Source: Azolla caroliniana
Taxonomy: Eukaryota; Plantae; Polypodiophyta
NCBI GenBank assembly: GCA_043228905.1
Contig: JBHGNT010000016.1
Span: 18,600,001 to 18,664,000, forward strand
DNA: 64,000 nt
Direction of reading: 5' to 3'
Numbering within the stretch: the stretch's first letter is position 1; each line of letters starts with the position of its first letter. Below the pieces are notes generated by a model that was not told where the DNA came from, did not search any database, and was given only the letters and a program-made list of their open reading frames with translations. Shown here one piece after another: positions 2,913-63,832 of the stretch. Both the position numbers and the translations under genes were made by a program.

Positions 2913-4028
2913 CTATCCAACTCCCATCATTTGTCGGCAATGAGCAAATCGCTCAGCTGGAAGACCCTTCGTGAGAAGATCTGCAGGATTATTATTTGTA
3001 TGTACTTTGACAAGCTCAATGTTCTTGTTGTCAAGTACATCTCTGATGAAGTGATACTTCACCTGTATGTGCTTCGTCTTTGCATGAAAGACGAGATTCT
3101 GAGCTAGCATGATAGCACTCTGACTATCACAATGAAGAATAGGTAACTTTGTATTGCCAATATCTCTCACTAGATATGAAAGCCATGAAGCCTCCTTGCA
3201 TGCCTCAGTGGCAACAACATACTTTGCCTCTGTAGTAGACAATGCAACACACTTTTGTAGTTTGGAGATCCAAGAGACCGCTCCTCCAATGAAAAACACA
3301 TACCCAGAAGTAGACTTTCTGCAGTCTGCGTGACCAGTATAGTCCGCATCTGTAAAACCAACGACATATGCCTTTTGATTTCCAAAGCAAATGCAACACA
3401 CTTTTGTAGTTTGGAGATCCAAGAGACCGCTCCTCCAATGAAAAACACATACCCAAAAGTAGACTTTCTGCAGTCTGCGTGACCAGTATAGTCTGCATCT
3501 GTAAAACCAACGACATATGTCTTTTGATTTCCAAAGCAAATGCACAAGTCCTTTGTGCCTTTGAGGTATCTCATAATGCCTTTCACCGCTTCCCAATGCT
3601 TTTTGTTGGGATTTTTCATGTACCTACTAACCATTCCCATTGCAAAAGCAATATCAGGGCGTGTAGCAACCATCACATATATCAAATTGCCAACAATTGA
3701 AGAATATGGAACCTTAGCCATTTCAACCTTCTCATCATCAGATGTAGGGTTGTCTTCTGCATTGAGTTTCAAATATGGAGGCAATGGAACCCCAATTGTC
3801 CCCCCCCCCCCCCCCCCCACCACCATATTGAAACGCTGCAAAACCTTAGACATATACTCTTGTTGAGATAGAAAGAGTAACCCTTTCGACCGGTTTTGGA
3901 GTATTCGCATGCCAAGGATGTGATTTGCATCACCAAGATAATTCATATCAAAGCTACCATGAAGGCTTTGCTTCAATGAATTCAAGGCATGAACATCCTT
4001 GCCAACCATCAACATATCATCAACATAC
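2913..4028 (-). pseudogene. Copia C1 RT C-terminus/RNase H, frameshifted, with 149-bp tandem duplication (3241-3540)
   Basis: ATRPDIAFA, GFTDADY..CRKSTSGYVF (twice), LHCDSQSAI, KTKHIQVKYHFIR, NPADLLTK. Confidence 0.9.
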
Positions 4029-4386: not shown

Positions 4387-4445
4387 TAATCTAATGGTAA
4401 GAGCTCGACCCATGTAGCATAAAGTCATGGGTTCGAGTCTTGCCA
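4387..4445 (+). promoter_or_regulatory. tRNA-like A-box/B-box cassette in LTR of A (second copy 9615-9673)
   Basis: TAATCTAATGG, 34 nt, then TTCGAGTC, ending GCCA; spacing equals tRNA positions 20-53. Confidence 0.6.
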
Positions 4446-19115: not shown

Positions 19116-19559
19116 TGTCATGGACACACCAAGCGCATACTAAGACGGAGCATGGATGATGAGGCTATGACAGAGCGATGACACGAGGAACTTAAGATGG
19201 GGAATGACACAAGAGCATAAAGATAGAGATGAAGATCAAGGAGAGAGGATGGGCGAAATGGGAATACTAGATTGATATGTCCATGACTGGCGTTGTTCAC
19301 CTTGAATTCCTTCAAGGTGAACTCAACTATTTATACTAAGTGGCATGCATACCTGTTGCACGCATGTGATACAATAGAGCATGTAGGCAGTAGGTACGCA
19401 TGCATGTGCCAAGTGTAAATAATACAAGGGAGAAATTATGCACATGATGCTAGCTAAAACCTACAATGAGGAAGTATATACATGATTATATGCTAGATGT
19501 GTGGTTAACGCATAACACTCGATTATAACATGGTCATGTCAAGAGTTCGAATCTTGACA
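19116..19559 (-). mobile_element. Solo LTR of the chromovirus lineage
   Basis: 444 bp, TGTCA..TGACA, TSD CACCC; shares R-region motif CAACGCCAGTC and the terminal B box GAGTTCGAATC. Confidence 0.85.
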
Positions 19560-21535
19560 CACCCGATATTGTTCTAGTCGGATTCAAACACGAGTCGAAT
19601 CGGCTTGTTATTGGACAATTGAATCTGTCGATTTGATTCCGATGTTGATCATAGATTTTGTGCCGATTATCTAGGTCGATCCTGATTCGGGTGACTGCAA
19701 TGATGAGAGGGACGGAGCCGACTGGTCCTCCCAAATGTCGTTCGGTCGAATGAAGCACGGATAGGGGTTGTTCCCTGGAGCTGGATCTGCTTTGAGATGT
19801 TACAACAAATGAGTAGATAGTGTCTAAACTGGTAAAGCATGATCGAGGCCAATTTGATAGAGATTCCACTCTGAGTGGCTTCATTCACAGAAGCAAGGTA
19901 TTGTTGGTTGGCTTACCTTAAGAATGATCTAGCTTGGTGGAGTGCAAATCTTCTATTCTTTTTCTCTTTTCAAGATGAGATCTTGAACTTAGGTTCTTCA
20001 AGGGAGACGAAGCAAGAATGCTAATGAAGACTGATGACAGATGGAAGCGAGTTGAAGAACCTCTGCTCTGATACAAGATGTTGTGAACTAAGGCCGTCAG
20101 TGCCGAGCATCAACACCACTTTGAGATGAAGATCACCAAGTGTACAAATGAACGCAAGATCGAAGAACAGAATGAGAGAGAGGGAGAGATCAAGAGGCAT
20201 TTTATTCAATGGTTACAATACTGTAACAATGGAGGCAACAATTCTCTTACAATATCAACAACCTTATGACCTAGGTTACAAAGCCTGTAATATACTAATT
20301 GAGCTAGGGCAACTGCCCTTTGACATATTTACATAAATGTGCTACACCTAGTTTGTCCAAGGGAACAATGTGAATACGACCATTATATGCCCATATTTGA
20401 CACTCTCTTCTGGCTACCATCCCCAAATGGATGGACAAGCAGAATGTAGAAATCAAACGCTAGAGCAATATCTTTGGTGTTTCATAAGCTATCAACAAGA
20501 TGATTGGGCAGATATATTACACTTTGCCGAATTTGCATATAATAAATTTATCCACTCCTCTATTAAGGTGACACCATTCTATGTGTATATAGGCGATCTT
20601 CCTCGTTGGTGTTTATTTGAAAATCTCGAATTACCCACGAATTCTAGTGCACAGGATCATTTGGAGTGACTACGCAAGATTTAGGCAGAACTGTCTAACC
20701 ATCTACATCAAGCCCAACAAACATAGAAGGACTATGCAGATTGTCATTGGCGTCCATCTTGTTTCGATATTGGAGATTGAGTATGACTATTACGACGGCA
20801 AGAAAAGAAAACCCGATCATGTGCCAAATTGGATTATCAAAGGCTAGGCCTTTTTATTATTAACAGAAAAATCAATGATGTCACATTTCGTCTTGATCTA
20901 CCTTCGCAATTACGGATACATCCGGTATTTTATAGTTCTCTCCTAGAACCATGTCAGAAAACCTCTATTCCAAATTGTACTACACCACCATCTCCAATTG
21001 AACTTGACGACGGACCTGAGTACGAAGTTGTTGCCATCCTCGATTCCAAGATAGTTCGTAATAAGCTCTACTATTTGGTGTATTGGTTAGGATATAGTCC
21101 AAGTGATCGTACTTGGGAACTAGTCGAGAATGTGGCAAATGCTTGAGCACTTCTTGAGGATTTCCATCGATAGTATCCAGATAAACCAGGTCCTCAGTCA
21201 AAGATGTCTCGTAAAACTTGTTGTTCAAAAGGGGGGGATAGTGTCACGATATGGCCCCAAAAAGAATTGAACCTGTGACCGTATGTTTCACAAGTTGATA
21301 CCATTAGGATAACAATTGTAATATAAAATATATTCTTTTCATTACAGAAAATTCATGTATATTCTAGATTACTTCGGAACATTCTAGAAAATTCGGGAAT
21401 ACTCTTGATAATACTATAAATAGAGGCATATGGCACTAATCAGAACCAATTCAGTTCAACGCTTATCTTAAGCCTATTAGCTATCCTTGTACTCTTTTTA
21501 TATAATATACTTCTTTGTTATCATACTTCTCTCTT

Positions 21536-29356: not shown

Positions 29357-29850
29357 ATCTTAAATAAAAGATAAATGCACACATATATATCGAGATCTAT
29401 ATGAGACTCTATTGGTCATAGAAAAAATTACAAGGGGACAAGTTCGATGGTCAATTGTATATGGTTTATGTATATATAGATTATCTATAAAGAGAAAACA
29501 TACATTATACATAAACACATAGGTATATTGCGCACTCACACACAACTTTGTTGGTGAGGTTCTTTGTGCATTCAACTTGTACATTCCGTAGTGTTATTTT
29601 GTTATCTTAAATAAAAGATAAATGCACACATATATATCGAGATCTATATGAGACTCTATTGGTCATAGAAAAAATTACAAGGGGACAAGTTCGATGGTCA
29701 ATTGTATATGGTTTATGTATATATAGATTATCTATAAAGAGAAAACATACATTATACATAAACACATAGGTATATTGCGCACTCACACACAACTTTGTTG
29801 GTGAGGTTCTTTGTGCATTCAACTTGTACATTCCGTAGTGTTATTTTGTT
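29357..29850. repeat. Perfect 247-bp tandem duplication
   Basis: 29357-29603 = 29604-29850; identical 74-aa ORFs in the track. Confidence 0.95.
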
Positions 29851-37830: not shown

Positions 37831-38880
37831 ATGTCATTGCTCCACTATCCTATTTTGTATCATTTGATGTGCCAATATTTTCTTCCGAAAGAACTTGATT
37901 GTTCGTTGTAGCAGCTATCTCCATCGGTGTTGATGTGTCAATAGAGAAGTAGAAAAAGTTTGAAAGCTGAAATTCTAGCTCCATGTTACGATGTTTCTTC
38001 CCCTCAAGTATAAATACCTACATAGCTCCAACTTTGTCACTTTGCAATTCTTCTGTCCTTTCGACATTTTCCATCTTCATGTCGCTTATATCACTGCTAG
38101 GACAATTACGATCTACACCTTGTTACTGTTTTGCATCATTTACATATCAAATAGATTGTTTTTAGTGTGGATCTTTTGTCTATCTATGTTTCCTCTTTCA
38201 CCATTGTTGTGAAGTTATTGCTTCACGATGTCAAAACAATGTCAAAAATCTATAGAAATAAATTTCCCATATGGAGCTTGTGGCGAGGAGCATATGGACA
38301 TTTTCGGTTCTTGAATCGGAGTTCAAGAGCCCAAGATACAAGCTTCGGAAGGATTAATGCTACTCGGGACACAAATGTAATTATGTCGAAAGGGGAAGTC
38401 AAAACTAAATGAGGGCTATTTCTATAATTTCTCAAATGTACAACTACAAAATTGAATTTGTAGAATCAATAAATAAAATAATAGTTCTTCTTGAGGGGCG
38501 GTAAGATATGGTGGCATCCGAAGAAATGGAATGGCTCACCACTCTAGGTGGTGACAAGGAAAGAGGACCGGTAGGAGCTTCTGTCGGAATTTCATGAGAG
38601 TCCCTGGTCCGGACATCGAGGGATGTGGGCGACATTCGAGAAGTTGAAGGAGAGGTACTAGTGGCTAGGGATGTACAAGGGTGTACACCAGTTCGTGACG
38701 ATATGCGAGAGTTGCCAAGTGCATTCCATAATTCGGCACCGAGATGAGTGTTGGTGTCAGGAACTCTATTAAGGCAGAGAAGGAATTAGTACTAAAAGAA
38801 GGATTAGTACTATTGTCGGGGAATAGTACTAAGACAGAGAAGGATTAGTACTATGAGAGGTGTCGAACTTTGAGAGAAGG

Positions 38881-39157: not shown

Positions 39158-39210
39158 TAACCTAATGGTAAAGTCTCGACCCGTGTAACAAAAGGTTATG
39201 GGTTCGAGTC
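39158..39210 (+). promoter_or_regulatory. tRNA-like A/B-box cassette in LTR of B (second copy 44468-44520)
   Basis: TAACCTAATGG, 34 nt, TTCGAGTC. Confidence 0.6.
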
Positions 39211-39213
39211 TAG

Positions 39214-42200
39214 TTATGACACTATCCCCCCTTTAAAACGACGAGTTCCACGAGTCGTTTTGGATTGAGGACCCGGTTTCTCGGGATATCGTCGATGGAA
39301 GTCTTCTAGAAGAGCACGAGCATTGGTCACATTCTCGATCGGTTCCCAAGTACGCTCGCTGGGACTATATCCTAGCCAATCGACTAGATAGTAGAGCTTG
39401 TTGCGAACAATCTTGGAATCGAGGATGGCAGCGACCTCATACTCAGGTCCATCTTCGAGCTCGATAGGAGGTGGTGGTTGTATAGTACGTCCTGGGATAG
39501 TGCTCTCGTGATAGGGTTCGAGGAGAGAACTATGAAACACCGGATGTATCCGAAGTTGCGGAGGTAGCTCGAGACGAAAAGCGACATCATTAATCTTCCC
39601 GATAATACGGAAAGGACCTAATCGCCGATAATCCAACTTCTCACATGGGCGAGTAGTCTTGATGTGTCGTCGTAGCAGCCACACCCGATCTCCAATGTTA
39701 AAACTGGATGGAAGTCGATGACGATCTGCGTAGTCCTTGTGTGATTGTTGAGCTTGCTGGAGTTGAGTAGATAAATCCGCTTGTATCTTGCGTAACCGCT
39801 CCAAACGATCCTCCGCGCAAGGATTTGTGGACACTTCTGGGGTTTCAAGGACACACCACCGGGGATGATATCCTGTATAAGCGTAGAATGGCGTGACTTT
39901 AGTCGATGCGTGGATAGCGTTATTATAGGCAAATTCGGCGAACTGAAGAATATCTGCCCAGTCATTCTGATGATAGTTGAGAAAGCACCGCAGATACTGC
40001 TCCAGTGTTTGATTTGTTCGTTCGGCTTGACCGTCGGTTTGTGGGTGGTAGCCGGAGGAGAGGTTACAAGTGACCTTCAGCATTTTAAAAAGGTGCTTCC
40101 AGAATTTTGACACAAACTGGGGTCCACGATCGCTGATGATATTATCAGGGAGTCCATGATGCCGACATACTTCCCGCATGACAATTTCGGCGGTGTCTTC
40201 ACTAGATATTTCTTTAGTACATGGTAAGAAATGAGCCATCTTCGTATATCGATCCACCACTGTGAGAATCGCACTGAATCCCTTAGAGACTGGAAGATCT
40301 GTAATGAAGTCAAGAGCAATGGATTGCCATGGCTTGCTTGGAATTGGTAATGGTTCTAATAAACCATATGGATGATGTCTTGGCATTTTCGCTCTGCAGC
40401 ATGTATCGCAAGTCCGAACAAAATCTTCGACAAATTGTCGCATACGGGGCCACCAGAATGATCGTTGTACTAAATCTAATGTTTTAGTACTACCAAAATG
40501 TCCTGCTGTATATGTGTCATGGCAGTTTTGTACTACTCGAAGGCGGCAAGAACCATTAGGAACATACAAAAGTTCTTTAAAGAAGAGTAATCCATCACAG
40601 TATTTGAATTGCCGATAATCCGTACCTGGTGATTGTGATTGTGAACATGACGCTCGAGAGGGGTCAATTTGTGCTAGTATAGCTTGGGCGAAAGCGTCAG
40701 TCTTCAAGTCCTCACGTATAGTATTGGTAATGTCGGAATCCACGGGCATGTCAAAGACCTGTGCTGCTTGCAGTCGTGCTGGACCCAAGATTACTTGCTT
40801 CTGGTTATCGAAAGCTGGCTCACCGGGACGTGGTGTTAGATACGAACGCCGTGATAATGCATCTGCCTTCCCTTGGTGCTTCCCCGGACGATATGTAATT
40901 TTGAAGTCGAAGCGTGTGAGGAAGTGGGCCCACCGAGCTTGACGTCGATTCAGTACACGAGCATCTTGAAAGTAGGCAAGGTTCTTGTGGTCACTGAATA
41001 CAGTGACCTGATGAGGAGATCCCTCCAGGAAATGCCTCCATTGCATAAAAGAATCAACTATTGCTAATAGCTCTTTATCATGAATTTCGTAGTTGATTTC
41101 GGCGGCGTCAAACTTACGGGAGTGGAAAGCCACAGGATGTAGCTTCTCGTCGTTACCTTGTTGTGACAGAATGCTCCCCAATGCGAAATCCGATGCGTCA
41201 GCTTCGATAATGAATGGTTTTTCCGGATCCACATGACCTAAAATTGGAGCTGATGTAAACGCCTTCTTAAGACTCTCGAAAGCCATGTCCGTCTCTTTAG
41301 ACCAGATGAATGATTGTCCCTTCCTGGTGAGCTGTGTGAGAGGCAGCACAATTTTTGAGTAATTTTGTATGAACTTCCGGTAAAAATTTGCAAAGCCTAG
41401 GAAGCATTGCACATCCCGCACCGAACGCGGAGTGTGCCATTCTATCACCGTTTTGACCTTGGCTGGGTCCATAGATATGCCTTCTGAGGAGATGACATAG
41501 CCGAGAAACTCCACTTGGTTGCACCCGAAACTACATTTCTCTAACTTTGCATACAGACCATGTTCTCGAAGTCGTTTTAGTACTAATAGTACATGAGAAT
41601 CATGTTCTTCTTGGGTCTTTGAATAAACCAGTAGATCATCCAAATAGATGATCAAAAAATCATCCAAGAGATCTCGAAATATATCATTCGCCATGTGCTG
41701 GAAGACTGCCGGCGCATTAGTGAGTCCGAACGGCATGACCGTATACTCGAAGTGCCCATATCTGGTGCGAAACGCGGTCTTCCATTCATCTCCTGGTCGG
41801 ATCCGTACGAGGTTATAGGCTCCTCGTAAGTCGATCTTCGTGAAGAACCTAGCACCGTTGATCCGTTCTAAAAGACTTGAGATAAGGGGAAGAGCATACC
41901 TATTTCTTACTGTGACCTTATTCAAGCCACGGTAATCTACAACGAGTCGAAGCGAGCCATCTTTTTTCTTGACGAAGAAAATGGGTGCGCCGGCTGGAGA
42001 TTTCGAATGCCGAATGAAACCGTTCTCCAAATTCTCCTCTATATAGGCTCGAAGGACTTCTAGCTCGGTTGGTGACAAATTGTAGATCGGCCCCCATGGC
42101 GGCTCTTTTCCCGGTTGTAAGTCGATGGCGCAATCGTACGGCCGATGATGAGGAAGTGTGTTGGTTTGTACTTTATCGAACACATCAGCATACTGATGAT

Positions 42201-42810
42201 ACTTCTCGGGAAGTTGAACGGTGGACTCCTCTTTGGTGGTGCTGGAGGGTTGTACTGATATTGCGAAGAGAAACATTTCCTCCTTGCGCCCTTCCTCACG
42301 CAACTGACGTAGCGAAATGGTTGCAACCTTCTGGGTAGATCCTTGGGTTTGTCGCAACTGGATTTCCCTTGTCCTCCAATCTATGTCTGGGTTATGTAAC
42401 TCGAACCATGGTAATCCTAAAACTATGGGATGTTCTGGAATACTAATAATATTAAATGATACTACACATGTTAAGTTATCTAGGACAATATTAACGGGTT
42501 CCGACTCTTCTATGATATTACCAGAAGCAATGGGACGACCATCAATGACTACTACTGAGGCTGGACATGGGAGCTTTCTGAGAGATATCTGATGAGCTCG
42601 GGCAAAATTCCTATCCATGAAGCAAGAATTAGCTCCGGAATCTAGAAGGGCTAAGGTATGTACTGGAGGGGTACTTTTAGTACTAACTGCTACTTGGGCT
42701 ACGAACACATCACTAACTTGCTTAGAGGGAATGGAACCACTAATGGGCTGCACAGATCTAGGGCTGTCCAACCAAACGGCTCCTATTTTGGCTGGACTTA
42801 GTCGTTTAAC
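39214..42810 (-). CDS. pol: Pol (PR-RT-RH-INT-chromodomain), -1 frameshift product
   Basis: LLDSGA, YLDD, ADASD, SDRGPQF, chromodomain; uninterrupted frame. Confidence 0.95.
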   Translation of the reverse strand, partial: VKRLSPAKIGAVWLDSPRSVQPISGSIPSKQVSDVFVAQVAVSTKSTPPVHTLALLDSGANSCFMDRNFARAHQISLRKLPCPASVVVIDGRPIASGNIIEESEPVNIVLDNLTCVVSFNIISIPEHPIVLGLPWFELHNPDIDWRTREIQLRQTQGSTQKVATISLRQLREEGRKEEMFLFAISVQPSSTTKEESTVQLPEKYHQYADVFDKVQTNTLPHHRPYDCAIDLQPGKEPPWGPIYNLSPTELEVLRAYIEENLENGFIRHSKSPAGAPIFFVKKKDGSLRLVVDYRGLNKVTVRNRYALPLISSLLERINGARFFTKIDLRGAYNLVRIRPGDEWKTAFRTRYGHFEYTVMPFGLTNAPAVFQHMANDIFRDLLDDFLIIYLDDLLVYSKTQEEHDSHVLLVLKRLREHGLYAKLEKCSFGCNQVEFLGYVISSEGISMDPAKVKTVIEWHTPRSVRDVQCFLGFANFYRKFIQNYSKIVLPLTQLTRKGQSFIWSKETDMAFESLKKAFTSAPILGHVDPEKPFIIEADASDFALGSILSQQGNDEKLHPVAFHSRKFDAAEINYEIHDKELLAIVDSFMQWRHFLEGSPHQVTVFSDHKNLAYFQDARVLNRRQARWAHFLTRFDFKITYRPGKHQGKADALSRRSYLTPRPGEPAFDNQKQVILGPARLQAAQVFDMPVDSDITNTIREDLKTDAFAQAILAQIDPSRASCSQSQSPGTDYRQFKYCDGLLFFKELLYVPNGSCRLRVVQNCHDTYTAGHFGSTKTLDLVQRSFWWPRMRQFVEDFVRTCDTCCRAKMPRHHPYGLLEPLPIPSKPWQSIALDFITDLPVSKGFSAILTVVDRYTKMAHFLPCTKEISSEDTAEIVMREVCRHHGLPDNIISDRGPQFVSKFWKHLFKMLKVTCNLSSGYHPQTDGQAERTNQTLEQYLRCFLNYHQNDWADILQFAEFAYNNAIHASTKVTPFYAYTGYHPRWCVLETPEVSTNPCAEDRLERLRKIQADLSTQLQQAQQSHKDYADRHRLPSSFNIGDRVWLLRRHIKTTRPCEKLDYRRLGPFRIIGKINDVAFRLELPPQLRIHPVFHSSLLEPYHESTIPGRTIQPPPPIELEDGPEYEVAAILDSKIVRNKLYYLVDWLGYSPSERTWEPIENVTNARALLEDFHRRYPEKPGPQSKTTRGTRRFKGGIVS

Positions 42811-43967
42811 TCTTCTTCTAATTGGCTAAGGATATCAAATTTGTTTGCGAGATTCGGACTATTAGTACTATTAGGACTATTATGACTATGAGGACTATCA
42901 GAGATTCCTACTGAAATAGACTCGGGTTTAGTATAGTCAGAACTAACAACGACTTGGTTTACCTGCCTTCTTGGTCTATGGGGACAGTTTATCGCGATAT
43001 GCCCTGGTCCACCGCAATAAAGGCATAATCGGTTTGTTCGGCGTCGTTGCTTTTCCTCCTCCGATAGCGGCCCACGACGACGTGTAGTGTCAATTTCCAT
43101 TGGAGTTGGAGTACTTACTGGAGGCGCATTATGTGACTCCCTTTGAAAAGGTTTCGCTACCACTGAGGCATAGGTAGGCTCGGATCTTGCCCTCGGCATC
43201 TGAAATTGTCGTTCCGAACGTCGCTCGAAGAGGCGGTTGTCACATCTGACCGCTCGACTGATTGCTTCTGTTAATGATTTTGGCTCTTCAGGGAAAGTCA
43301 AGAGTAAATCCTTGACATCGTTGCGTAGACCATAGCGGAACTGCTCCATCAATGCTTGATCATCCCAGGGGATATCGGCGGCGAGTAGGCGGAAATCTGC
43401 AGCATATGCGGAGGCTGGACGGTCACCTTGGCGTAATCGCCGGATTTTATTGATTGCAGTCCTTATGCTGTCAGTATCTCCAAAACATGCTTTAAACTCA
43501 CTTATGAATTCTTCAAAATTATTTAGTACTGGAGATTCCTTTTCTAGTAGCGGAGCGAACCATGCTAATGCTGAGCCATTTAACAACGTGCCTACTAAAC
43601 CCACTCGTGATGCATCGGTGGGATATCGGGACGGATGCATTTGAATAACTAACCGTACCTGGTTAAGAAACCCTCTAAACTGCGATCGCGTTCCATCGAA
43701 CTTCGTGGGAAGGCCAATCTTGGGTTCTTTATGAATCCCTTGTGCTCCGTGCCCTTGTTGTTGCATTGCTACGATGGTTGCTTCGAGTTGTTGCACGCGT
43801 AACGCAAGTTCCCCATGCTGTTGTTGCGTTTGCTGCTTTTCTAAGGAAATTTGCTGAAGATCCCCCAACAAGCGTTGATTTTCTTGTTCCAAAGCATGAA
43901 ACTTCTCTTTCAAGCATTGAAATTCCGAGAAAACGGATTGATACTCTTCAGCGCTAACGGTGGCCAT
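42798..43967 (-). CDS. gag: Gag
   Basis: 389 aa, close paralog of gag A, CLYCGGPGHIAINC. Confidence 0.95.
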   Translation of the reverse strand: MATVSAEEYQSVFSEFQCLKEKFHALEQENQRLLGDLQQISLEKQQTQQQHGELALRVQQLEATIVAMQQQGHGAQGIHKEPKIGLPTKFDGTRSQFRGFLNQVRLVIQMHPSRYPTDASRVGLVGTLLNGSALAWFAPLLEKESPVLNNFEEFISEFKACFGDTDSIRTAINKIRRLRQGDRPASAYAADFRLLAADIPWDDQALMEQFRYGLRNDVKDLLLTFPEEPKSLTEAISRAVRCDNRLFERRSERQFQMPRARSEPTYASVVAKPFQRESHNAPPVSTPTPMEIDTTRRRGPLSEEEKQRRRTNRLCLYCGGPGHIAINCPHRPRRQVNQVVVSSDYTKPESISVGISDSPHSHNSPNSTNSPNLANKFDILSQLEEELND

Positions 43968-44068: not shown

Positions 44069-44196
44069 ACTGTCAGGAACTCTATTAAGGCAGAGAAGGA
44101 ATTAGTACTAAAAGAAGGATTAGTACTATTGTCGGGGAATAGTACTAAGACAGAGAAGGATTAGTACTATGAGAGGTGTCGAACTTTGAGAGAAGG

Positions 44197-44241
<45 letters not shown>

Positions 44242-47200
44242 TGATGCGAAAGATATATGTATTATATGAAGGAAGATATACAACAGTGGTTAGAAGGCTT
44301 AAGACTGGCGTTGAACCGATTTGGTTCGAACTAATGCCTTGCGCCTCCTTTTATAGTGTCTTCAGGAATACTCCTGAAGTTTCTAGAATGTTCCAGAGAA
44401 ATCTGGAATATACATCAATTTCCTAATAAAACCTAAATGAAAATAATATCCTTCAAATTACAATTCATAACCTAATGGTAAAGTCTCGACCCGTGTAACA
44501 AAAGGTTATGGGTTCGAGTCTAGTTATGACAGTTGGCATAAAAGGCCGACTCCTTCCACTTTGTATCCTAGTGTGAACTCGTCCATATAGTTAGGGCTTA
44601 GTATATAATCGATAACCTAACGTTGTAAAGAGTGTGCTTCTTGATCATTTTGGTAACAAGTCTTTGAGTTGAGAGAGAGAGAACAAAAATAGAGAGAGCT
44701 TCCGTTAAAGCGTCATCTATGTGTTTATATCTTTTTGCCTTCCTTCTGTGTTGTTTGCTGAGCATAACCGACAGATCCTCACATATGTTCCCGCGCATAT
44801 TTGTCCTTCCCCTAGTATCAGAGCGATCCGTAGCTTGGTGGCAACAAACAACAAAAAGAAAAGGCTGAAAGGAAAAAGACCAGGTTAGCAAATCTCACTT
44901 TGAAAAGAATCATGGCATCAACATCTGGTACAGGAGTTAGGATCCGAAAATTCGACGGGAAAAACTTTGCCCTATGGAAGGAGATGATGCAGGATGTACT
45001 GATTATTTGAAGACAGGTCGAGGCCATTCGACACACCGAAAAGCCTGCTTCAATGTCAACCGATGAGTGGAGATCAATGGAAAAAATCTCACGCTCCACC
45101 ATTTGAATGCACCTAGTAAAAAATTTCTACTTCAGCATGGCAAAAGAGACACCAACGTTCTCACTATGGGAGAAGCTACAAGCCGTGTATGACAAAAAGT
45201 CCTCATCTTCAAAATTGATCTTGATCAAACAACTGTTCAACATGAAGATGAGAGAGACCGATACGGCTACCTCTCACATCAACACCTTCAGCCGGGTGTT
45301 GTTAGAACTCTCTTCACAAGGGATCATTTTTGAAGAAGAAGTGAAAGCCCTTGCCCTCCTATCGAGCTTACCGATGAGTTGGGAGGTATTCTGCACGACA
45401 TACACCAATAGCTGACCGATCCTAAACTTGGATGAGACGATCGGCCAAGTCCTCACCGAGGACATTCAGTGAAAATCGATGGGACTTACCATCGATAAAT
45501 CGGCAAAAGCCCATCACTCGACCGAGTTGTTCGACTGACATTGTTGAACGAGAGAACAAGCCGATAGAACCGGTCGGAATACCAACCGATCAAAAACAAG
45601 GGGAGACTAACAATAGTCGAAGTCGAGAACAGGCCGATTAGGCGAATTCTGCACATATTGTAGAAAATGTGGCCACAATGTTTCCGACATTGGTCGATCA
45701 AGATGAAAGAGAGTGGTCGACGATTTGAGCGAAATTGAGGCCAACCTGATTCGAACCACTCTCCAGTTGGAAACCAAATCAACCTTGCTGACTCCCGATC
45801 AGGACAAATCCTCTCCTTAGAGGATTCAATGATTGGAGAAGTCCTATACTGTGCACAAGATGCACACACGTGGTTACTGGATTCCGGAGCCACATTCCAT
45901 GTGACCCCCAACATTGAATGGTTTTCGAACTATTCAGTTGGCGCCAACGGCACAGTCTGACTAGGCAATGGGCAGGAGTGCAAATTTGCAGGAACCAGAG
46001 AGGTTCCCATCTGATTGCCCAATGGCAACATGATCACCCTGCACCAACTCAAGCACGCACCCGATCTGAAAAGGAGTCTAGTCTCCATCGGTATGTTAGT
46101 CGAAGATGAGTACCGAACGAGTGTAAGTGAGTCGATATGGATGATCAACCAGGGTTTTGTTAGAATTGGGAATGGACACAAGTACAATAACCGAGGACAC
46201 AAGTCTTCACCGAGGACATTAGGCGAAAATCAATGGACTTACCATCGATGAACGAGTCATTTGACCGACATAGTAGAACGAGAGAACAAGTCGACAAAAC
46301 CAGTTTGAATACCAACCGATAAAAAACGAGGGGCCGATCAGGCGAATTCTGCACACACTGCAGAAAAGCTAGCCACAATGTTTCTGACAGTTGATCGATC
46401 AAGAGTAAAGAGAGTGGTCGGAGATCCGAGCGAAATCGAGGCCGACCCGACTCAGACCACTCTCTAGTAGGCAACCAAATCAACATTGTTGACTCCCGAT
46501 CAGGAGAAATTGTCTCCTTAGAGGATTCAATGATCGAAGAAGTTCTATATTGTGAACAAGATGCACACACATGGTTACTGAATTCCAGAGCCACATTCCA
46601 TGTGACCCCCAACATTGAATGGTTTTTGAACTATTCAGTCAACGCCAACGGCACAATCCGACTAGGCAATGGGCAGGAGTGTAGAATCGCAGGGACCGGA
46701 GAGGTTCCCATCTGATTGCCCAATGGCAACATGATCACCCTACACCAAGTCAGGCACATACCTGATTTGAAAAGGAGTCTGGTCTCCATAGGCATGTTAG
46801 CCGAAGAAGGGTATTGAATGACTCTAAGTGAGTCGATATCGATGATCAACCGGGGAAATCTCAGAATTGGGAGTGGACACAAGTACAATAACTTATACCC
46901 ATTAATGGTGATCAATCCAGAAGGGGCCGTGAACGTAGCCAAAAAGACCAACCCAAACTTATGGAATGGCCGACTCGGCCATATATCTCAAGCCAGACTC
47001 GATTGGCTGATGGCGGTTGGTTACATCCCTAAACTCCAAGCAAAGACAGACTTCTGCGAGCATTGTCGATACAGGAAACAGACCCGATTTCACACACTCT
47101 CCACTACGAGACGGTACATAAGGCCATAGAGCTCGTGCACAAATATATATGTGGGCCCATGCTAGAGCGATCACTAGGAGGCTCCCGGTACTTCATCACC

Positions 47201-52300: not shown

Positions 52301-52556
52301 GTCACTGCTTTTCTTCTTTCAATAGGGGTCCGCGACAACATGTGGTGTCAATTTCCATTAGAGTCAGAGTATTTGTTGGAGACGTATTAAATGACTCCCT
52401 TGGGAAAGACTTTGCTACAATTGACGCGTAGGTGGGCTCCGATCTTGCCCTCAGCATTTCAAACTTACGTTATAAACGTCGTTCGAAGAGGCGGTTATCG
52501 CATCGTACTGCGTGACTGATTGCTTCTGTCAATGACTTTGGTTCTTCGGGGAACGT
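49318..52556 (-). pseudogene. Chromovirus C: decayed gag-pol, truncated at both ends
   Basis: Colinear with A/B from late gag to integrase, with stops and frameshifts. Confidence 0.92.
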
Positions 52557-52850
52557 TGTCGGGGTAGTTGTGGTTTGTCCGGCGAAGTCGCAGGGACTAA
52601 GGTTAAAGGGAGTTGACCAAACTTTTATAAGGCTTTGCGCACAAATGTTAGGAAGATTAAGGATAAGAAGAATAAGAGTTTAAAGTAATGTGTGAGAGAG
52701 AGATGAGCATAGATAAAAGATAGAGAGAATGTATGATTTAAGAAGAAAGAGTATAAGATATGAACATGATTTATATTAAAATAAGAAAACTAGTTTTTAC
52801 CAACATTACAATGCATTATAACAAGATGAACCCTTTCTCTACCGACTCTT

Positions 52851-52904
52851 GATTTGAACCCTTGACTCGAACTTGGAAACACGAGCCTCTTCACCAACAA
52901 GCTA
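52851..52904 (-). promoter_or_regulatory. Second, oppositely oriented tRNA-like cassette in H LTR
   Basis: Minus strand TAGCTTGTTGG, 35 nt, TTCAAATC. Confidence 0.55.
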
Positions 52905-53175
52905 ACTTGTTTATTTCATTAATTATGTTCTAACTTTCTCTTGAATCCCCTTTTATTTTCCTTTCCCCTCTTTTTATAAGTATTGTCATGCATATGGTAA
53001 TGTGTAAGAGCATGGCATGCATGTAATGCATAAGTTACATGTGATGCATGATCGCCATTTGGCGCACATGCATTACATGTGATGCATGATAGCCATCATG
53101 CTCATTTGAGCTCCCATGTATGAAAATATATATGGGATAAGTATAATGATGGATATAACCCTAAAACAAATAACC

Positions 53176-53232
53176 TAGCTTAGTGGTGTATGCTTTGTCC
53201 TTGATATACAAGGTTGAGGGTTCAAGTCCCTC
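53176..53232 (+). promoter_or_regulatory. tRNA-like cassette in H LTR (consensus A box, perfect T arm)
   Basis: TAGCTTAGTGG, 34 nt to TTC; T arm GAGGG-TTCAAGT-CCCTC. Confidence 0.7.
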
Positions 53233-56200
53233 AATTTTACTTAATACAATATTTAAGTTTATTCTTATATAGTGAAGCACATTCTTGAACCCTTGCCCCC
53301 ATCATTGTTTCTGAATCAATATCCTGATTTCTTTGTTGCGTCTTCCCCTCAAGTATAAAAAACTGTGAATTCATTCCATTCTATCCATATCTAACAAATC
53401 ATTACAATCCACCGATCCGTTTGGTTGATTGGATAGACGAAGTAATCTATTAATTAATGTTTTTTTGTCAAACTTTTATTTGCTTTTATTGAATTGAGCC
53501 TTTCTGAATTTTTTTTATTAAAAACTAAATTAGGATGGAAGTTTGGTTATTCCCCTGATAATCAGATATCCTATTTCTTCCCCATTTTATATTTTTCAAA
53601 TATCGGATATGCGTTTGAGACGGGTGAACAACTCACTTTACCAAAACCAATGGATACTACTAGTGATAGAACCAACCATTTTTTCATCCAGTTATTCGTA
53701 ATTCTTCTTCGCATAGATCTATGATTGTTGCCAAGTCTCCACCCAAACGGATCCTCACCAATGTTTGCGTTACTCAAGCCGACATTCTCAATCCTTTCTG
53801 TCCCATCTAATTCATTGAGGAAATATGTGGCCTTATCTGTTATTTTCCTAACTTCATAAGGTCCAAACCATCTTTTTCTGAACTTCCGAATAGTACTGTA
53901 TTGATTATCTAGGCTACTATCATATACTAATACCCAGTCTCCCTCTTGCACCTTCCTTGGTCGTATTCTTTTTATCTTGTCAAATATGTCCTTATTCTTG
54001 ATTCTTGCCTCTTTCAATCTAGTAGCAACTTTTTCTATGTCTTTTGTCTTGGATTGATGTTGTCGTATCCGAATAGCAAGTAAATCTTCCCTACTCATTT
54101 CTGATTCCCAAGGCAACACAACCCATGTAGTTATCTTTTCTTCAATTGGCATTATCGGCTTCTGTCCTGTGATTAATTCTGCAAGCATATATCCAGTAAT
54201 AGTGTTATGAGTTGTCTTATCAGCCCATAGTGCATAGGGTAAGACTTTTGGCCAATCACTGACTCGTCCTTTACATGCCTTTGCTAAAGCTTTGACTATT
54301 GGCCCATGTCCCCTTTCTATCTTTCCATTAGCTTCCGTATTGTATGTCGTTGTTAAAGATAGCCTAATCCCTATTTTGTCGAAAAAATATTGAGCTTCTA
54401 CAAAATTGAACTCTCCCCTATCTGCTACTATCTTCCCGATACATCCATATCTATAAACAATGTCCTCCAAGATGAATTGACATACTCCTAATGTCCCTTT
54501 TGTTCGCAATGCACGTCCTTCCACTTGATTTGTTAGATCTTCTCTTGCAAGAACCAAGTATATCTTTTGTCCTACTCCAAGTGGCATTGTTACCAAATCT
54601 ATCATCCACTTGTAATGCACCCCCGGTGAGTATGTTGGGTGTAATTCATCACAAAATTTTACATTTGAATAATATTGACAACTGGGACAAGTTTCCACAT
54701 ACTTTTTTATTTGCTCATAGTATCGAGGCCACCAAAACCGTTCTTTAATCTTACTGAAAGTGGCCCACACTCCTCGATGACCGGCCCATTCTTTGTCATG
54801 CAGCTCTCTGATTATCTCCTTTCTTTGCCCTTCAGAACCTATTACTCTTTGTGGGTTTCCAGTCTTGGTTTTCGGATGTCCCCATAGATATCCTTCATGC
54901 AGGAAGAACTTATGGGCTTTCTTGCAAAACTGTGCAAACTCTTTTCCAGATCGACCTTTGTACTTGTCAAGGGTTTGTAGGTATTTCCCTATTTCCTTGA
55001 ATTCTTCTTCATACTCCTCTTCTAGAAACTGCATTCCTCCTTCCCGGGTAATGCTTGTGGTAAGGACTGTTTGTTCTTTGTCCTCATCGTCCGAGTCTGG
55101 AATCTCCTCTTCCTCATACCTTGCTCTTGATAACATATCTGCTACTTCATTTCTATTCCCAAAGATATGTCGAACTTCAGGGTTGACTGATCTAATATAG
55201 ATACACCATCTTAACATGTCTTGATTTGGAATATCACAATTAGCTATGATACCAAGAATAGGCAAACAATCTGTTTCTATTATTACTTCAGCACCAATTA
55301 AGTAATCTCTATCTGTCTTAACTGTTGTTACTACCCCCCATAACTCTTTTTGACCTATGCATATTTTCTTTGTTCACCACTAAGAACCTTCGCTCCGAAT
55401 CGGATTGGATACCTTTCTTCCCCATCTTGTTGGCTTATCACCCATCCAACTCCAATGGGATTGGAGTCTACTGTGAGATATATGGGCCGGGTGTAGTCAG
55501 GTTGCTTTAATGGTGGAGCTTGTGCCAAGTAACACTTCAATTTCCTCATTGCCTCCGAATGCTCTTCACTCCATTCAAATGTTTCTCCTTTTCTTAGGAG
55601 TCTGTATAAAGATTCAGATAAATGGGCATAATGCGGAATCCATCTACAGTAAAAAACACATACCCCCAGAAACCTTCATACTTCGGAGACGGATGTACAT
55701 TCCTCTTGCATGTTTTGAATTGCATTGACCTTGGTGGGGGATGGATTTCTCCCATACGGGCCACACAGATGACCAACTATTAATATCTCTTTTGCCCCAA
55801 ATATTGATTTCGCCCCTGATAAGGTCAAATGCACTTCTTCCATCCTTGATAGTATCTTCTCACAATCCTTGATATGGTCGGCAACGAATTGTCAGCAACC
55901 ATCTTCATCCAATTCCTCATTCTTCTCTTCCTCCTTGCATCCCTTGATTGGAACATCATCTAAAAAAGGCATTGTAATATGAGGAATAAAATCACGAAGT
56001 ACCTTGTTCATTCCATTCATCATATGCGCCACTGAGTTGGTCGCTCCTTGCGGCAAGGTACACATCTGTACTAACCCTATAGGTGTCTTGATAGAAGTAA
56101 TATCTCGACTTTTGATATCAAGTTGAAATTGATCATACCTAGAATAAAGGTCTCCCATTGAATATATAGCTCTTCATGCAAATATCTCAGCAAACTCATC

Positions 56201-56397
56201 CACAATTGGTCCTACTCCCAAGTTTCGGATTGTTACCTTATTCACGGGTTGCATATCTTGGATAAATCGGAGCCGTCCATCTTTCTTTAACACAGTGAAC
56301 CGTCGACTCGAGTAAGGTGCATTCGATGGTTCCAAGATACCCACCCTTATCTTTTCTTTCAAAAGTTCTAATAGTTGAGGGATTCTAGCCCTAGCGC

Positions 56398-59300
56398 CTT
56401 CACGGTTGAGACCCGGAAGAAACTTCGGATCAGTGGAGGTGGGTTTCTCACAAAATGAAGAAGAACGGTTTCGTGAGATATTGGAGCAGCATGGACGAGC
56501 ATTTGCATTCACATCCAAAGAGATAGGGTGTGCTGACCCGAAGATAGTGGAACCGATGGTGATCTTCACGATTGATCATGTGTCGTGGAACCTGAAGCCG
56601 ATTCCGGTGCCACAGGCGCATATTCCGAAAATCATTGACTTGCTCAAGGAGAAGGTGGCGATGGGGATTCTAGAGCCATCCAACGCTCCATACTCAAATT
56701 GATGGTTTACGGTTCCGAAGAAGAATGGGTCACTCCGATTTATTCAAGATTTGCAACCGGTGAACAAGGTCACGATCCGGAACTCTGGAGTCAGTTCGAT
56801 AGTGGACGAATTTGCGGAAGTGTTTGCCGGTCGCGCGATATACTCCATCGGAGACCTATACTCCGAGTATGACCAATTCCAACTAGCCGTGGAGAGCCGA
56901 GACATCACTACCATGCGAACACCGATAGGATTGGTCTGGATGTGCACGCTACCACAAGGCACGACGAACTCGGTCGCACATATGATGAATGCGATGAACA
57001 AGGTGCTCCGGGACTGCATTCTGGAGATAACGATGTCATTCCTAGATGACATTCTGATAAAAGGATGTGCGATGGAAGAAAAAGATGAGACTATGGATGA
57101 TCAGGGATGCCGAAAGTTCGTAGTCGACCATATTCGTGATTGCGAGAAAGTGTTACAGAAGTTAGAAGATGTGCACCTAACATTCTCCGGAGAGAAATCG
57201 GCATTCGGACAAGAAGAGATATTGGTAGTCGGACATCTACGTGGGCCCTACGGCCGAAGACCGTCGCCAGTTAAGATTGATGTGATTCAAGCTATGAAAG
57301 AAATATGCGAGTCACAATCCGAAGTCCGTAGATTTCTTGGGGCATGTGCATTCTATCACATATGGATTCCGCACTATGCACACATTGCGGATCCACTCTA
57401 TCACTTGTTGCGGAAGGGGAAGAAGTTTGAATGGAAACCGAAACATACCAAAGTCGTGAAGAAGCTCAAGAAATCACTACAGAGGGCAGAAGCATTTAAG
57501 AAGCCGAACTATGACCGACCGATTATAGTAACGGTTGATACAAGTCGAACCGGGATCGGATGGGTCATCAATCAAGCCGATTCGGATGGTTCACGATATC
57601 CAATCTGATTTGGAGCAAAGGTTCTCAACGAAAGGCAACGCGGATATGCACAAGTTAAAAGAGAATTATGGGGAGTTGTGTCGGCAATAAAATCATATCG
57701 AGATTACTTAATTGGAGCCGAAGTAGTGATCGAAACGGATTGTCTTCCAATACTCTGTATGATGCGGTGTTGCACGATACCGGATGTGTCTATGCTAAGA
57801 TGGATTGCATATGTAAAGTCGCTTAATCCAAAGATATGACACATCTCCGGAAAAGATAACGCGGTAGTGGATATGCTATCAAGGGCACGGTTCAGAGACG
57901 ACATAGCCGAATCCGATAATGAAGAAGTTTCCGAAAATTACTTTACTTCGGAGCACATATGCCGGGTGAACGAAATCCGAGAATTCCGGGTAGAAGAATA
58001 CGAGGGAGAAAGTTTGTTGATCGGGAAAGTGCTACAAGAAATCGAGGAAGCATCGGACAATAAAAAAAAGAGAGTCGAGATCCGAAATAAGAAGCGGCAA
58101 CTCCAAAAGTTTTTCTTGAACAATGGATTAATTTGGAGGGAACCGAAAAGACCGAATGGTATACCACTATGGGTAGTCGGAATAAAAGAGCAACAAAACT
58201 GAATAATGTCTGAATTTCACGAATTCGATTGGGCTGGACATTGGGGAACATGGGCAACATTCGCGAAGATCAAACGAAAATATTGGTGGAAGAATATGTA
58301 CAAAGATGCAACGGAGTTCACGGAAAGCTATGAGAAATGTCAAATCTACTCCGGACTTCGACACCGAGATGAATTACATTCGATATTCTCACCGACAATC
58401 AACTTCAAATGGATGGTGGACATTGTGGCCATGCCAACCGGGATCGGACAAAAGAAGTACTTGGTGTTAGCCCGAGAAGATCTAACAAACCAAGTAGAAG
58501 GACGGGCACTACGGAGGAAAACACATTCCGCGGTATGCCAATTTCTCTTGGAAGAATTGTTCTGCAGGTACGGGTGTGTTGGACAAGTGGTTGCAGATCG
58601 GGGAGAACTTGACATTGATAAAGCTAGGGAATTCTTTGTTAGACATGGAGTACGATTAACACTAACCACGGCATACAATCCGGAAGCCAACGGGAAGGTC
58701 GAACAAGGACATAGTCCAATCGTCAAAGCAGTTGCAAAAGCATGTGATGGAAGGATTGGCCGCAGATGCTTCCATATGCACTATGGGTGGATCGCACGAC
58801 GCATAGTTTGGTGACCAGTTATATGCCAGCCGAACTTATGACCGGACAAGCACCGGTAATTCCGACGGAAACCACAATTGCAACATGGATAGTGCTATCG
58901 TGGAAGGAAGAATTGAGCCGGGAAGAACTAGTAGCAGTCCGGATACGATAACTAGAGGGAAGACCGGAAGACATAGCGGAAGCAACACGCCGACAATAGG
59001 AAGCGCGATTCCGGAACAAAGGTCGATTCGACACAAAGCATCGACTACGACCACAAAAGATTGAAGAAGGAGATTGGGTGATCGGTCTATGACAGTAGTT
59101 TGGATCATCAACATACAACGATACGAAAGTTTGCTAAAAGGTGGTTCGGGCCATACGAGGTTCGGAATGTTTTCGACAACAGAACTTACCGACTATGCGA
59201 GTTGGATGGAACAGTACTACAGGTCCTATAGCGGGGAAACGGGTGAAGATTTTCAAGAAGCGGACTGACGACGAACCTTATGTAAGCTTAAACAAGACCA

Positions 59301-62622: not shown

Positions 62623-62784
62623 TGTCATGAACACATGACCATTATGGCGTCACCCGGACTTGAACCTCGAACCTTGTAATCCATACTTGAAAACCTCAAC
62701 CATTAAGATAGCTTATTGTTATATGAAACAATATAACAAAGCTACTTCTTGAATTACATTGATTATTGTAAAAACTCTAGATTT

Positions 62785-62848
62785 TTCTAGAATGTTCTAG
62801 AATGTCCTAGAGCATTCTAGGTCTAGAACATTCTAGAACATTCTAGAA
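62785..62848. promoter_or_regulatory. Expanded heat-shock element array in L LTR
   Basis: TTCtaGAAtgTTCtaGAA...GAAcaTTCtaGAAcaTTCtaGAA upstream of TATAAAT (62874). Confidence 0.8.
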
Positions 62849-63082
62849 ATCTCTAAGATATTCTATAGGAACCTATAAATAAGGGCATACGTGTATTCTC
62901 AAATCAATTCGAATCAACACCAGTCTTTAGATCTCATTACATATCTTGTATCCATTCTCTTTCTTTCTCTATCTTATACATCCATTCTTCTCTTAGTATT
63001 TGGTTCCTTTCTTCTCGTGTTCTCTAATATCCTTCTTCCATCACTCTATCTTTTATCCTTGGTTCTGACAGTTTGATTCGAA

Positions 63083-63143
<61 letters not shown>

Positions 63144-63146
<3 letters not shown>

Positions 63147-63803
63147 AGATCCAAAAGACGCATAAAAGCAAAATTTTGTGTTCCGGTTGGATGCAAGATA
63201 TAGAAAAATGGTTTGGTAGATGGGATGCGAGACACTTGCTTCATGATGCATCATTAGATTCCTCTGTAAATGAGGCATTTTTGCAACGCCAATGTATCAT
63301 GACATGGGACAAATGTGGAGGCTCACGCTTCACACATTATACTACACATGTTGCACCTAACTACAAAACCATATTCTTCGCGGAAAGGGGAAATCGTACA
63401 CATCCATACATGTTAGAGCCCATACCGTTATCTGCCATTCGAACCATTGCTTCCATGCGACTTAGCTCACATGCATTGCGATGTGAAACAGGGCGTTGGG
63501 GTACAAGTGATGAGAGTGGTCGGCTATGCACACTTTGCCCTAAACAAGTTCGCGAGTCTGAGTATCACACTTTGATACAATGCTCTGCCTTTGATCATAT
63601 TCGACCATGCTTTCCACATCTCTTCGATCGAGCCCAATCTTTGCATGAATTCCTCTCACAACCACAATGTGCACTCTCGATTGCAACATTCATTGGTAAA
63701 GTTCTTGAACATCGAGAGTCACTACTCACTTTCACACGTATCACGTGAAATGTAATATTTTTGGTCTCATAGGTCATATTTGATCTCCGAAGACGATAAT
63801 ATA

Positions 63804-63832
<29 letters not shown>
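63144..63832 (+). mobile_element. 5'-truncated non-LTR retrotransposon (RTEX-like ORF2 C-terminus) with (TATC)n tail
   Basis: Open 190-aa frame with MRLSSHALRCETGRW..RLCTLC..ESEYHTLIQCSAF; tetranucleotide tail; candidate TSD TCTCAT. Confidence 0.75.

What the first reader, a model, noticed from the sequence alone, without database searches (positions are those of the whole stretch)
52851..53232. An unrelated Gypsy lineage has the same cassette, as a divergent pair bracketing its promoter
Seen: the H LTR (non-chromovirus) has a near-textbook tRNA head, TAGCTTAGTGG..GAGGG-TTCAAGT-CCCTC, ~50 bp from the LTR 5' end and antisense, the same placement as in the chromoviruses. A second cassette lies on the other strand (52904-52851). 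Together they flank the CATG-rich U3 and the TATA box (~52970-52980). Inference: convergent capture or LTR module exchange between lineages; the paired outward-facing B boxes resemble an insulated promoter.
Basis: partly seen in the sequence, partly recalled or inferred. Interest (0 to 1): 0.7.

Follow-up and report, generated by a model that had tools for sequence, protein, structure and literature searches.

The report
tRNA promoter boxes in Gypsy LTRs
The end repeats of a protein-coding jumping gene from a non-seed plant carry two back-to-back remnants of tRNA genes, one of them also found at the same spot in a very distant group of jumping genes, and these remnants likely work as docking sites for the tRNA-gene factor TFIIIC that would help keep the element's own promoter open.

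Summary
Both cassettes are real. Cassette 1 (53176-53232, antisense) has perfect A and B boxes; cassette 2 (52904-52851, sense) is weaker but beyond chance. They lie in the 3' LTR of a Phygy-like non-chromovirus Gypsy. Two related contigs and family contigs in 6 of 8 sequencing runs laid (5 species labels) carry them, so they are family features. No consistent TSD or tail marks a fresh SINE, and they are not tRNA genes. Corrections: this LTR copy is cut at 53288 by plastid-like filler; relatives carry cassette 1 twice in tandem; cassette 2 lies 74 nt downstream of TATA, inside the predicted transcript, and its A box is decayed in one relative. An antisense cassette sits near the LTR start in all 4 chromovirus families here and one solo LTR, but not in 3 other Phygy-like LTRs or 10 outgroup chromoviruses. 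Transfer from a chromovirus LTR is slightly favoured, not shown. Likely role (untested): TFIIIC binding; a neutral relic remains possible. Closest known: Helenus/Cassandra, which are non-coding. The scan notes I saw held no report of this cassette, only tRNA relics elsewhere in Gypsy elements of other genomes.

The parts
52557..53288 (-). 3' LTR of element H, ending ...CGACA, truncated at its 5' end
   Evidence: 83% identity over 630 nt to the 5' LTR of L001 and 85% to its 3' LTR; depth step near 53290 and loose ends at 52553-52557
53176..53232 (+). Cassette 1: tRNA-derived head, antisense to the element; A box 53176-53186, B box 53219-53228, T4 run 53235-53238; no acceptor stem
53165..53288 (-). 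U3 unit holding cassette 1; two tandem copies (spacing 136 and 134 nt) in relatives L001 and L002
   Evidence: back-joints 53280/53288 to 53163/53172
52851..52904 (-). Cassette 2: degenerate tRNA-derived head, sense to the element, in the predicted R region; A box 52904-52894, B box 52860-52851
   Evidence: depth peak
52971..52978 (-). TATA box of the LTR (predicted Pol II promoter), kept in L001 and L002
52990..53125 (.). CATG-rich U3 with an imperfect palindrome at 53037-53080; the most deeply covered part of the LTR in the runs
52553..52556 (.). ACGT flank next to the LTR end, fits the Phygy NCGN target; chromovirus gag continues beyond it; the other side is not in the window
53289..53795 (.). 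Foreign filler standing where relatives have the integrase end, PPT and LTR start; 53597-53753 resembles the 5' end of plastid petA
   Evidence: absent from L001 and L002; flat high depth from few contigs and loose ends; cytochrome f hit E 0.72
53796..56394 (-). RT-RNase H-integrase remnant of H (broken copy)
   Evidence: 93% nt identity to L001
9615..9667 (+). Comparator: antisense cassette in chromovirus LTR (twin at 4387-4439)
44468..44520 (+). Comparator: antisense cassette in second chromovirus family LTR (twin at 39158-39210)
21264..21311 (-). Comparator: antisense cassette in third chromovirus family LTR
62657..62710 (-). Comparator: antisense cassette in fourth chromovirus family LTR; closest match to H cassette 1 (73% over 64 nt)
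19494..19553 (+). Comparator: weaker antisense cassette at the very start of a solo LTR (19117-19559, 5-bp TSD), probably chromovirus-type

Best explanation
The LTRs of this protein-coding, Phygy-like Gypsy family carry inherited tRNA-derived A-box/B-box modules, antisense at the start of U3 and sense just inside the predicted transcript, which likely act as DNA binding sites for TFIIIC and would help keep the LTR's Pol II promoter open in repeat-dense chromatin. Shown: presence, spacing, family-wide inheritance, tandem duplication of the antisense module, no tRNA fold under selection, no fresh-SINE hallmarks, and the same antisense module in chromovirus LTRs of this genome. Inferred: (a) a tRNA or tRNA-SINE head entered an LTR once and was then copied to both LTRs at each replication; (b) the H lineage gained it after splitting from the other Phygy-like families, more likely (about 55:45) by recombination with a chromovirus LTR than by separate capture; (c) TFIIIC binds, with the antisense orientation sending any Pol III away from the Pol II start; (d) this gives a barrier or open-chromatin effect like yeast tDNA barriers.
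For: A-to-B spacing is 43 nt in 5 of 5 H-family cassette-1 units and 44 in 3 of 3 cassette-2 copies. Across the 5 chromovirus-type LTRs mean pairwise identity is 0.83 in the B box and 0.70 in the A box against 0.52 between the boxes and 0.47-0.61 in flanks, in families whose proteins are only 53-83% identical to the reference family. All 4 chromovirus LTR families with coding sequence in the window have the module, so they were not picked by it. L002 (LTR 71% identical to H) keeps the spacing and the B-box core of cassette 2 while the interior falls to 45-55%. Contig depth at 80% likeness peaks over cassette 2 in 6 of 6 covering runs: 2.4-4.3 times the neighbouring spacer, and 3104-3375 against 231-413 in X12; it centres on the B box. 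No covariation supports a tRNA fold (454 of 500 shuffles pair as well), pointing to a DNA-level element. The B box stays canonical in the family at 62623, whose self-priming site has changed, and in H, which uses a tRNA-Trp-type PBS. tDNA A/B boxes act as barriers in yeast (PMC7990762, passages).
Against: No binding, chromatin or transcription data were obtained. Inside the H family the boxes of cassette 1 are only slightly more conserved (A 0.83, B 0.81) than the interior (0.75) and flanks (0.68-0.72), and 4 of 5 units have a mismatch in the A box and 3 of 5 in the B box, as drift would give. Cassette 2's A box has 4 mismatches in L002. Three other Phygy-like LTRs, one further Gypsy LTR, three Copia LTR stretches and 10 of 10 outgroup chromoviruses do without it. 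Cassette 2 would put TFIIIB near the Pol II start, which could hinder rather than shield it (inference). Only 2 relatives were read as sequence, both metagenome contigs that may be collapsed copies; depth sums are no copy counts. The yeast review says barrier function seems to need the full Pol III apparatus, which decayed A boxes may not assemble.
Confidence: 0.4

Rival explanations
1. Neutral relic: old tRNA-SINE heads fell into an ancestral LTR, were fixed by replication and now drift without function.
For: Small box-versus-flank contrast within the H family and mismatches in most units; absence from sister Phygy-like LTRs; Kojima reports that 'not a few' Repbase LTRs hold tRNA-like pieces and proposes SINE insertion as the origin of Helenus. 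Old TSDs and tails would have decayed.
Against: Boxes outlast all surrounding sequence across chromovirus families whose LTRs barely align; fixed spacing; B-box-centred depth peak over cassette 2 in 5 species labels; the same strand and LTR end in 6 families.
Confidence: 0.25
2. The cassettes are active Pol III genes making short RNAs (about 70-110 nt, antisense for cassette 1) that tune or decoy silencing of the element.
For: A T run of 4 or more follows within 35 nt in 5 of 5 H-family cassette-1 units, against a chance of 0.26 per 45-nt window (units not independent). AT-rich DNA and often a CAA lie just upstream, as in plant tRNA genes (PMC13437025, passages).
Against: 4 of the 5 chromovirus-type LTRs have no T run between cassette and LTR end. 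No conserved RNA fold. The A box, needed for initiation, decays first in cassette 2.
Confidence: 0.15
3. The inverted boxes work as RNA: the U3 copy and the R copy pair in the genomic RNA and bring its ends together for strand transfer, like Ty1 CYC5/CYC3.
For: The two B-box arms are complementary over 9 nt in H, 10 and 8 nt in L001 and 7 nt in L002. CYC5/CYC3 pairing is described for Ty1 (PMC7969010, passages). B-box-centred conservation fits this too.
Against: Two B boxes on opposite strands are complementary by definition. No compensatory change was seen. In the chromoviruses the U3 box matches the transcript's 5' end over only 5 nt, yet box, A box and spacing are kept, which pairing does not explain.
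Confidence: 0.15
4. Cassette 1 is a second docking site for the primer tRNA, like the tRNA-like stretch reported in HIV-1 U3 (recalled; primary paper not seen).
For: The element RNA's U3 is complementary to a tRNA-like sequence.
Against: The family PBS is of tRNA-Trp type and the T-stem strand it implies differs from the cassette's; the chromoviruses that share the cassette are self-priming, with 12-nt PBS-LTR complementarity in 3 of 3 tested.
Confidence: 0.04

Closest known systems
Helenus / TRIMp3 (Kojima 2024, PMC10886601; main-text parts 1-4 of 6, figure legends and supplement passages seen)
   Same: tRNA-derived A and B boxes inside LTRs, tRNA fold not kept, not used as primer, proposed origin from a SINE or tRNA insertion.
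   Different: Helenus is non-coding and 311-1263 bp; the three Helenus LTRs shown carry one sense cassette, thought to drive the element's RNA. Here the elements code gag and pol (about 7 kb), keep a TATA box, and the main cassette is antisense, duplicated, and paired with a sense one. The paper expects autonomous partners to use Pol II promoters and not to share LTR sequence of this kind.
Cassandra and Ajax TRIMs (as described in PMC10886601; PMC10853983 and PMC7215508 seen only as search listings)
   Same: Pol III promoter module fixed in both LTRs of an LTR element; Cassandra occurs in ferns and seed plants.
   Different: 5S-derived, non-autonomous, promoter makes the element's RNA.
Phygy non-chromoviruses (Neumann et al. 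2019, PMC6317226; passages and supplement rows seen)
   Same: tRNA-Trp PBS, NCGN target, no extra domain, coding region fills the internal part.
   Different: No tRNA-like LTR module is mentioned ('tRNA-like' 0 occurrences in the main text); three other Phygy-like LTRs in the window lack it.
tDNA / TFIIIC chromatin barriers of yeast (review PMC7990762, passages seen)
   Same: A/B boxes next to silent chromatin; the proposed mode of action.
   Different: Host loci, shown by experiment; here carried by a mobile element and untested.
Ty1 CYC5/CYC3 cyclization sequences (PMC7969010, passages seen)
   Same: Complementary short sequences near both ends of an LTR-element RNA.
   Different: Not tRNA-promoter-like; the pairing here is shorter and shows no covariation.

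Membership tests
Helenus (TRIMp3) | tRNA-like A and B boxes inside the LTR | tested here: met
Helenus (TRIMp3) | Non-autonomous, short (about 1.3 kb at most), no coding sequence | tested here: not met
   L001 has 710-aa and 1158-aa open frames between PBS and PPT
Helenus (TRIMp3) | Cassette in sense, able to drive the element's RNA | tested here: not met
   Cassette 1 is antisense; cassette 2 is sense but a T4 run follows within 13-96 nt in 3 of 3 copies
Helenus (TRIMp3) | Pol III transcription | not testable with these tools
   only contigs could be laid
tRNA-SINE insertion (recent) | Target-site duplication and A-rich or simple-repeat tail | tested here: not met
   Longest flanking direct repeats are 7-11 nt, AT-rich, different in every copy, absent in 5 of 14; an A6 run in 1 of 14
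tRNA-SINE insertion (recent) | Dispersed copies outside LTRs with a shared body | tested here: inconclusive
   All profile hits with E below 1 in 130 kb (window plus 12 loci) lie in LTRs; no genome was held
tRNA gene | Cloverleaf with acceptor stem, above curated score, covarying stems | tested here: not met
   ARAGORN 0; Rfam 22.1 below 29, model positions 8-63 only; no covariation
Phygy non-chromovirus | tRNA-Trp PBS | tested here: met
   L001 PBS matches the tRNA-Trp-type PBS printed; Phygy 81% Trp
Phygy non-chromovirus | 4-bp NCGN target-site duplication | tested here: inconclusive
   ACGT on the one side present; other end not in the window
Phygy non-chromovirus | No chromodomain, no extra domain or extra ORF; coding fills the internal part | tested here: met
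   and Pfam lists of the closest homologs
Phygy non-chromovirus | Size 7656-9968 bp | tested here: inconclusive
   about 7.3 kb by adding L001's internal part and two two-unit LTRs
Phygy non-chromovirus | Phylogenetic placement with REXdb Phygy references | not testable with these tools
   no reference set held; nearest named homologs are from Riccia sorocarpa, best 61-62%
Tcn1-type chromovirus (comparator elements) | Chromodomain and self-priming PBS | tested here: met
   Chromo E 2e-14 in the 39214-42825 frame; 12-nt PBS-LTR complementarity in 3 of 3; clade placement by tree not tested
tDNA/TFIIIC barrier | TFIIIC occupancy and blocking of silencing | not testable with these tools
   needs ChIP and reporter assays

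The most novel reading that the evidence does not exclude
Autonomous Gypsy retrotransposons of non-seed plants carry their own portable TFIIIC boundary: a tRNA-promoter module that passed from chromovirus LTRs into a non-chromovirus lineage (pol 24% identical), was then duplicated and supplemented by a second module, and lets these elements stay transcribable inside heterochromatic nests.
Probability: 0.2. Interest if true: 0.78.

Novelty: new variant of a known kind. Interest (0 to 1): 0.52.

Why it matters
tRNA-derived promoters in LTRs are described for gene-less mini-elements, where they are thought to make the element's RNA. Here they sit in full coding elements of two deeply split Gypsy lineages, mostly on the wrong strand for that job. 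If they bind TFIIIC, abundant retrotransposons would scatter many Pol III-factor sites through a plant genome and bring their own shield against silencing, and LTR modules would be shown to cross between Gypsy lineages. The claim is directly testable by ChIP and reporter assays. Such LTRs could also inflate tRNA-gene counts in repeat-rich non-seed plants (a lead only).

Tried and rejected
No host genome was held, so no genome-wide LTR census, SINE search or comparison with host tRNAs was possible. Scans of viral contigs with the H integrase and of prokaryote genomes and a 20-nt LTR motif in viral contigs found nothing. No RNA holder was listed; of three runs guessed to be RNA, X15 laid nothing, X18 one contig outside the cassettes, and X17 is flagged as probably DNA: no evidence on expression either way. 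Rejected: (1) my first reading that 53290-53305 is the PPT; relatives show another PPT and the stretch belongs to the filler. (2) The chromoviruses also have a divergent pair: their second GGTTCAA is the self-priming site. (3) The H LTR is a captured whole chromovirus LTR: its only specific match to chromovirus LTRs is the cassette. (4) Cassette 2 is an inverted copy of cassette 1: box-fixed shuffle p 0.09-0.98 in 7 tests, not supported. (5) A self-priming-like site at 17196 was a Copia internal stretch, not an LTR. NCBIfam gave nothing for the filler. The Azolla genome paper says nothing on tRNA-like repeats. Ten literature searches listed no paper on tRNA-derived boxes in LTRs of autonomous plant Gypsy elements; the library lacks most subscription papers and Repbase Reports, and supplements other than those of PMC10886601 and PMC6317226 were not searched.

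Full report
Setting. The window is a nest of plant LTR retrotransposons. No host genome was held. The host is a non-seed land plant by inference: the nearest named homologs of the H-family pol are from the liverwort Riccia sorocarpa at up to 61-62% over most of the length; unchecked scan notes say fern or moss.

Element H. H lies on the minus strand: RT to integrase at 56394-53796, then filler, then an LTR at 53288-52557 that ends in CGACA and abuts a chromovirus gag. A metagenome scan returned 2 loci out of 394 pattern matches. L001 is 93% identical to H in pol, has gag and pol frames of 710 and 1158 aa, a tRNA-Trp-type PBS, a G-rich PPT and LTR ends TGTCG and CGACA. L002 is more distant (81% aa; LTR 71%). 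The PBS, the NCGN flank and the lack of extra domains fit Phygy; no tree against references was possible. Pol is 24% identical to the chromovirus pol.

The window copy is broken. 53289-53795 is missing from both relatives. Its depth is flat and comes from very few contigs; contigs leaving it at 53597 continue in frame into a cytochrome f-like peptide (read by eye), and the piece itself hits cytochrome f weakly (E 0.72). It is most likely plastid DNA that filled a deletion.

Cassette 1. 53176-53232 has perfect A and B boxes 43 nt apart, scores 22.1 bits on Rfam tRNA over model positions 8-63, and lacks an acceptor stem. No shuffle of 3000 gave a pair with fewer than 2 mismatches. Both relatives carry it twice, in tandem units 136 and 134 nt apart; all 5 units keep the 43-nt spacing, with 0-1 mismatch per box. 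Stems do not covary in the 4 gap-free units tested. Mean identity among units is 0.83 (A), 0.75 (interior), 0.81 (B), 0.68 and 0.72 (flanks), a small contrast.

Cassette 2. 52904-52851 has a perfect B box and a 2-mismatch A box; 2 of 3000 shuffles reach that. L001 has 1 mismatch; L002 has 4 in the A box and 1 in the B box, with spacing 44 kept in all three. It starts 74 nt downstream of TATA. In three chromovirus LTRs the self-priming site, which marks the RNA 5' end, lies 32-33 nt after TATA, so by analogy cassette 2 is inside the transcript.

Family-wide presence. Eight runs were laid; 6 cover both cassettes (5 species labels, 4 studies), 1 laid nothing and 1 laid a single contig elsewhere. 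Depth over cassette 2 exceeds the neighbouring spacer in all 6 (2.4-4.3 times; about tenfold in X12), highest at the B box. Joints that skip a cassette exist, each from 1-2 contigs at depth under 70 against hundreds to thousands, many with unknown letters between; 15 of 65 and 15 of 17 joints were shown. Loose ends before 53233 are variant cassettes that keep the B box. Depth here means likeness among contigs, not copy number.

Not a fresh SINE. No shared TSD or tail flanks 14 cassettes, and every profile hit with E below 1 in 130 kb lies in an LTR. An ancient SINE origin stays open.

Distribution. An antisense A/B cassette ends 6-34 nt from the LTR start in 4 of 4 chromovirus families with coding sequence and in one solo LTR of probable chromovirus type. 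Across these five, B box 0.83 and A box 0.70 stand against 0.52 inside and 0.47-0.61 outside. It is absent (4 or more mismatches) from 3 other Phygy-like LTRs, 1 other Gypsy LTR and 3 Copia LTR stretches, and from 10 of 10 circularly assembled outgroup chromoviruses of unknown host. The chromoviruses have no cassette 2.

Exchange or convergence. The only specific H-to-chromovirus LTR match is cassette 1 against the family at 62623 (73% over 64 nt). A chromovirus profile finds H at E 2.4e-4, and an H profile finds that family at E 3.5e-3. With boxes held fixed, 8 of 25 cassette-1 comparisons fall below p 0.02 and 9 below 0.05, all against two families (units not independent, no correction). Part of this could be generic tRNA likeness. 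The upstream flank alone gives 4 of 15 below p 0.05. Since sister Phygy-like families lack the module, and one of them shares the PPT and first 30 LTR bases with L001, H gained it late; a chromovirus donor is slightly favoured. No tree test was run, so direction is not shown.

How it likely works. Shown: inheritance, fixed spacing, B-box-centred conservation, no RNA fold. Inferred: TFIIIC binds the boxes as DNA. The antisense module, 198 nt upstream of TATA, would send any Pol III outward and could hold off silencing from the flank, as tDNA barriers do in yeast. I put this at 0.40, a neutral relic at 0.25, short Pol III RNAs at 0.15, U3-R RNA pairing at 0.15 (9-10 nt complementarity) and primer docking at 0.04.

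Relation to known systems. It resembles Helenus and Cassandra in content but fails membership: coding, long, mainly antisense. Kojima notes that other Repbase LTRs hold tRNA-like pieces without describing them, so such pieces in LTRs are not unheard of. Ten searches listed no description of this arrangement. Papers seen: PMC10886601 parts 1-4 of 6, legends and supplement passages; PMC6317226 passages and supplement rows; passages of PMC2864245, PMC7990762, PMC7969010, PMC13437025, PMC13578239, PMC6786969, PMC3286476; all others as listings only. The A/B-box consensus and the HIV-1 comparison are recalled.

Verdict. A real, family-wide feature and a new variant of a known kind. The insulated-promoter reading is plausible and testable but unproven. 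Interest 0.52.

Noticed in passing
window 9256-9680, 44071-44531, 62623-63070: Three chromovirus families have a PBS with 12-nt complementarity to an LTR site 32-33 nt after TATA, changing in step between families: Tf1/Sushi-type self-priming with covariation.
   Followed up: yes
window 53289-53795: Plastid-like filler with a petA 5' fragment fused in frame to the integrase remnant, giving the odd tail of the 600-aa frame.
   Followed up: partly
window 53037-53080: Imperfect CATG-rich palindrome with far higher contig depth than the rest of the LTR and loose ends into other sequences, so shared by other repeat families; CATGCA resembles the RY motif of B3 factors (recalled). The solo LTR at 19117-19559 is also CATG-rich.
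   Followed up: partly
L001 451-520: An inverted chromovirus 5' end (gag, leader, last 60 nt of LTR) joins the H-family LTR right at the edge of the cassette-1 A box; a real chimera or an assembly artefact.
   Followed up: no
window 9622-9678: The cassette of this chromovirus family and the LTR terminus form a strong hairpin (-29 kcal/mol, z -5.5); z -3.2 in the family at 44461-44532.
   Followed up: no
window 56394-56400: H and a second Phygy-like element meet head to head at RT, both lacking their 5' halves.
   Followed up: no
window 63083-63830: A fragment with a 200-aa frame and no Pfam hit, preceded by a long CT repeat, sits between PBS and gag of the chromovirus at 62623; it looks like a LINE end (recalled resemblance).
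   Followed up: no
window 29357-29850: Perfect tandem duplication of 247 nt.
   Followed up: no
window 37996-38014 and 53341-53359: A 19-nt exact match between the plastid-like filler and a stretch inside another Phygy-like remnant; perhaps a second organellar piece.
   Followed up: no
literature, PMC13578239: The fern Azolla is credited with over 7500 tRNA genes, ascribed to duplication and repeats; LTR-borne tRNA-like cassettes might contribute.
   Followed up: no
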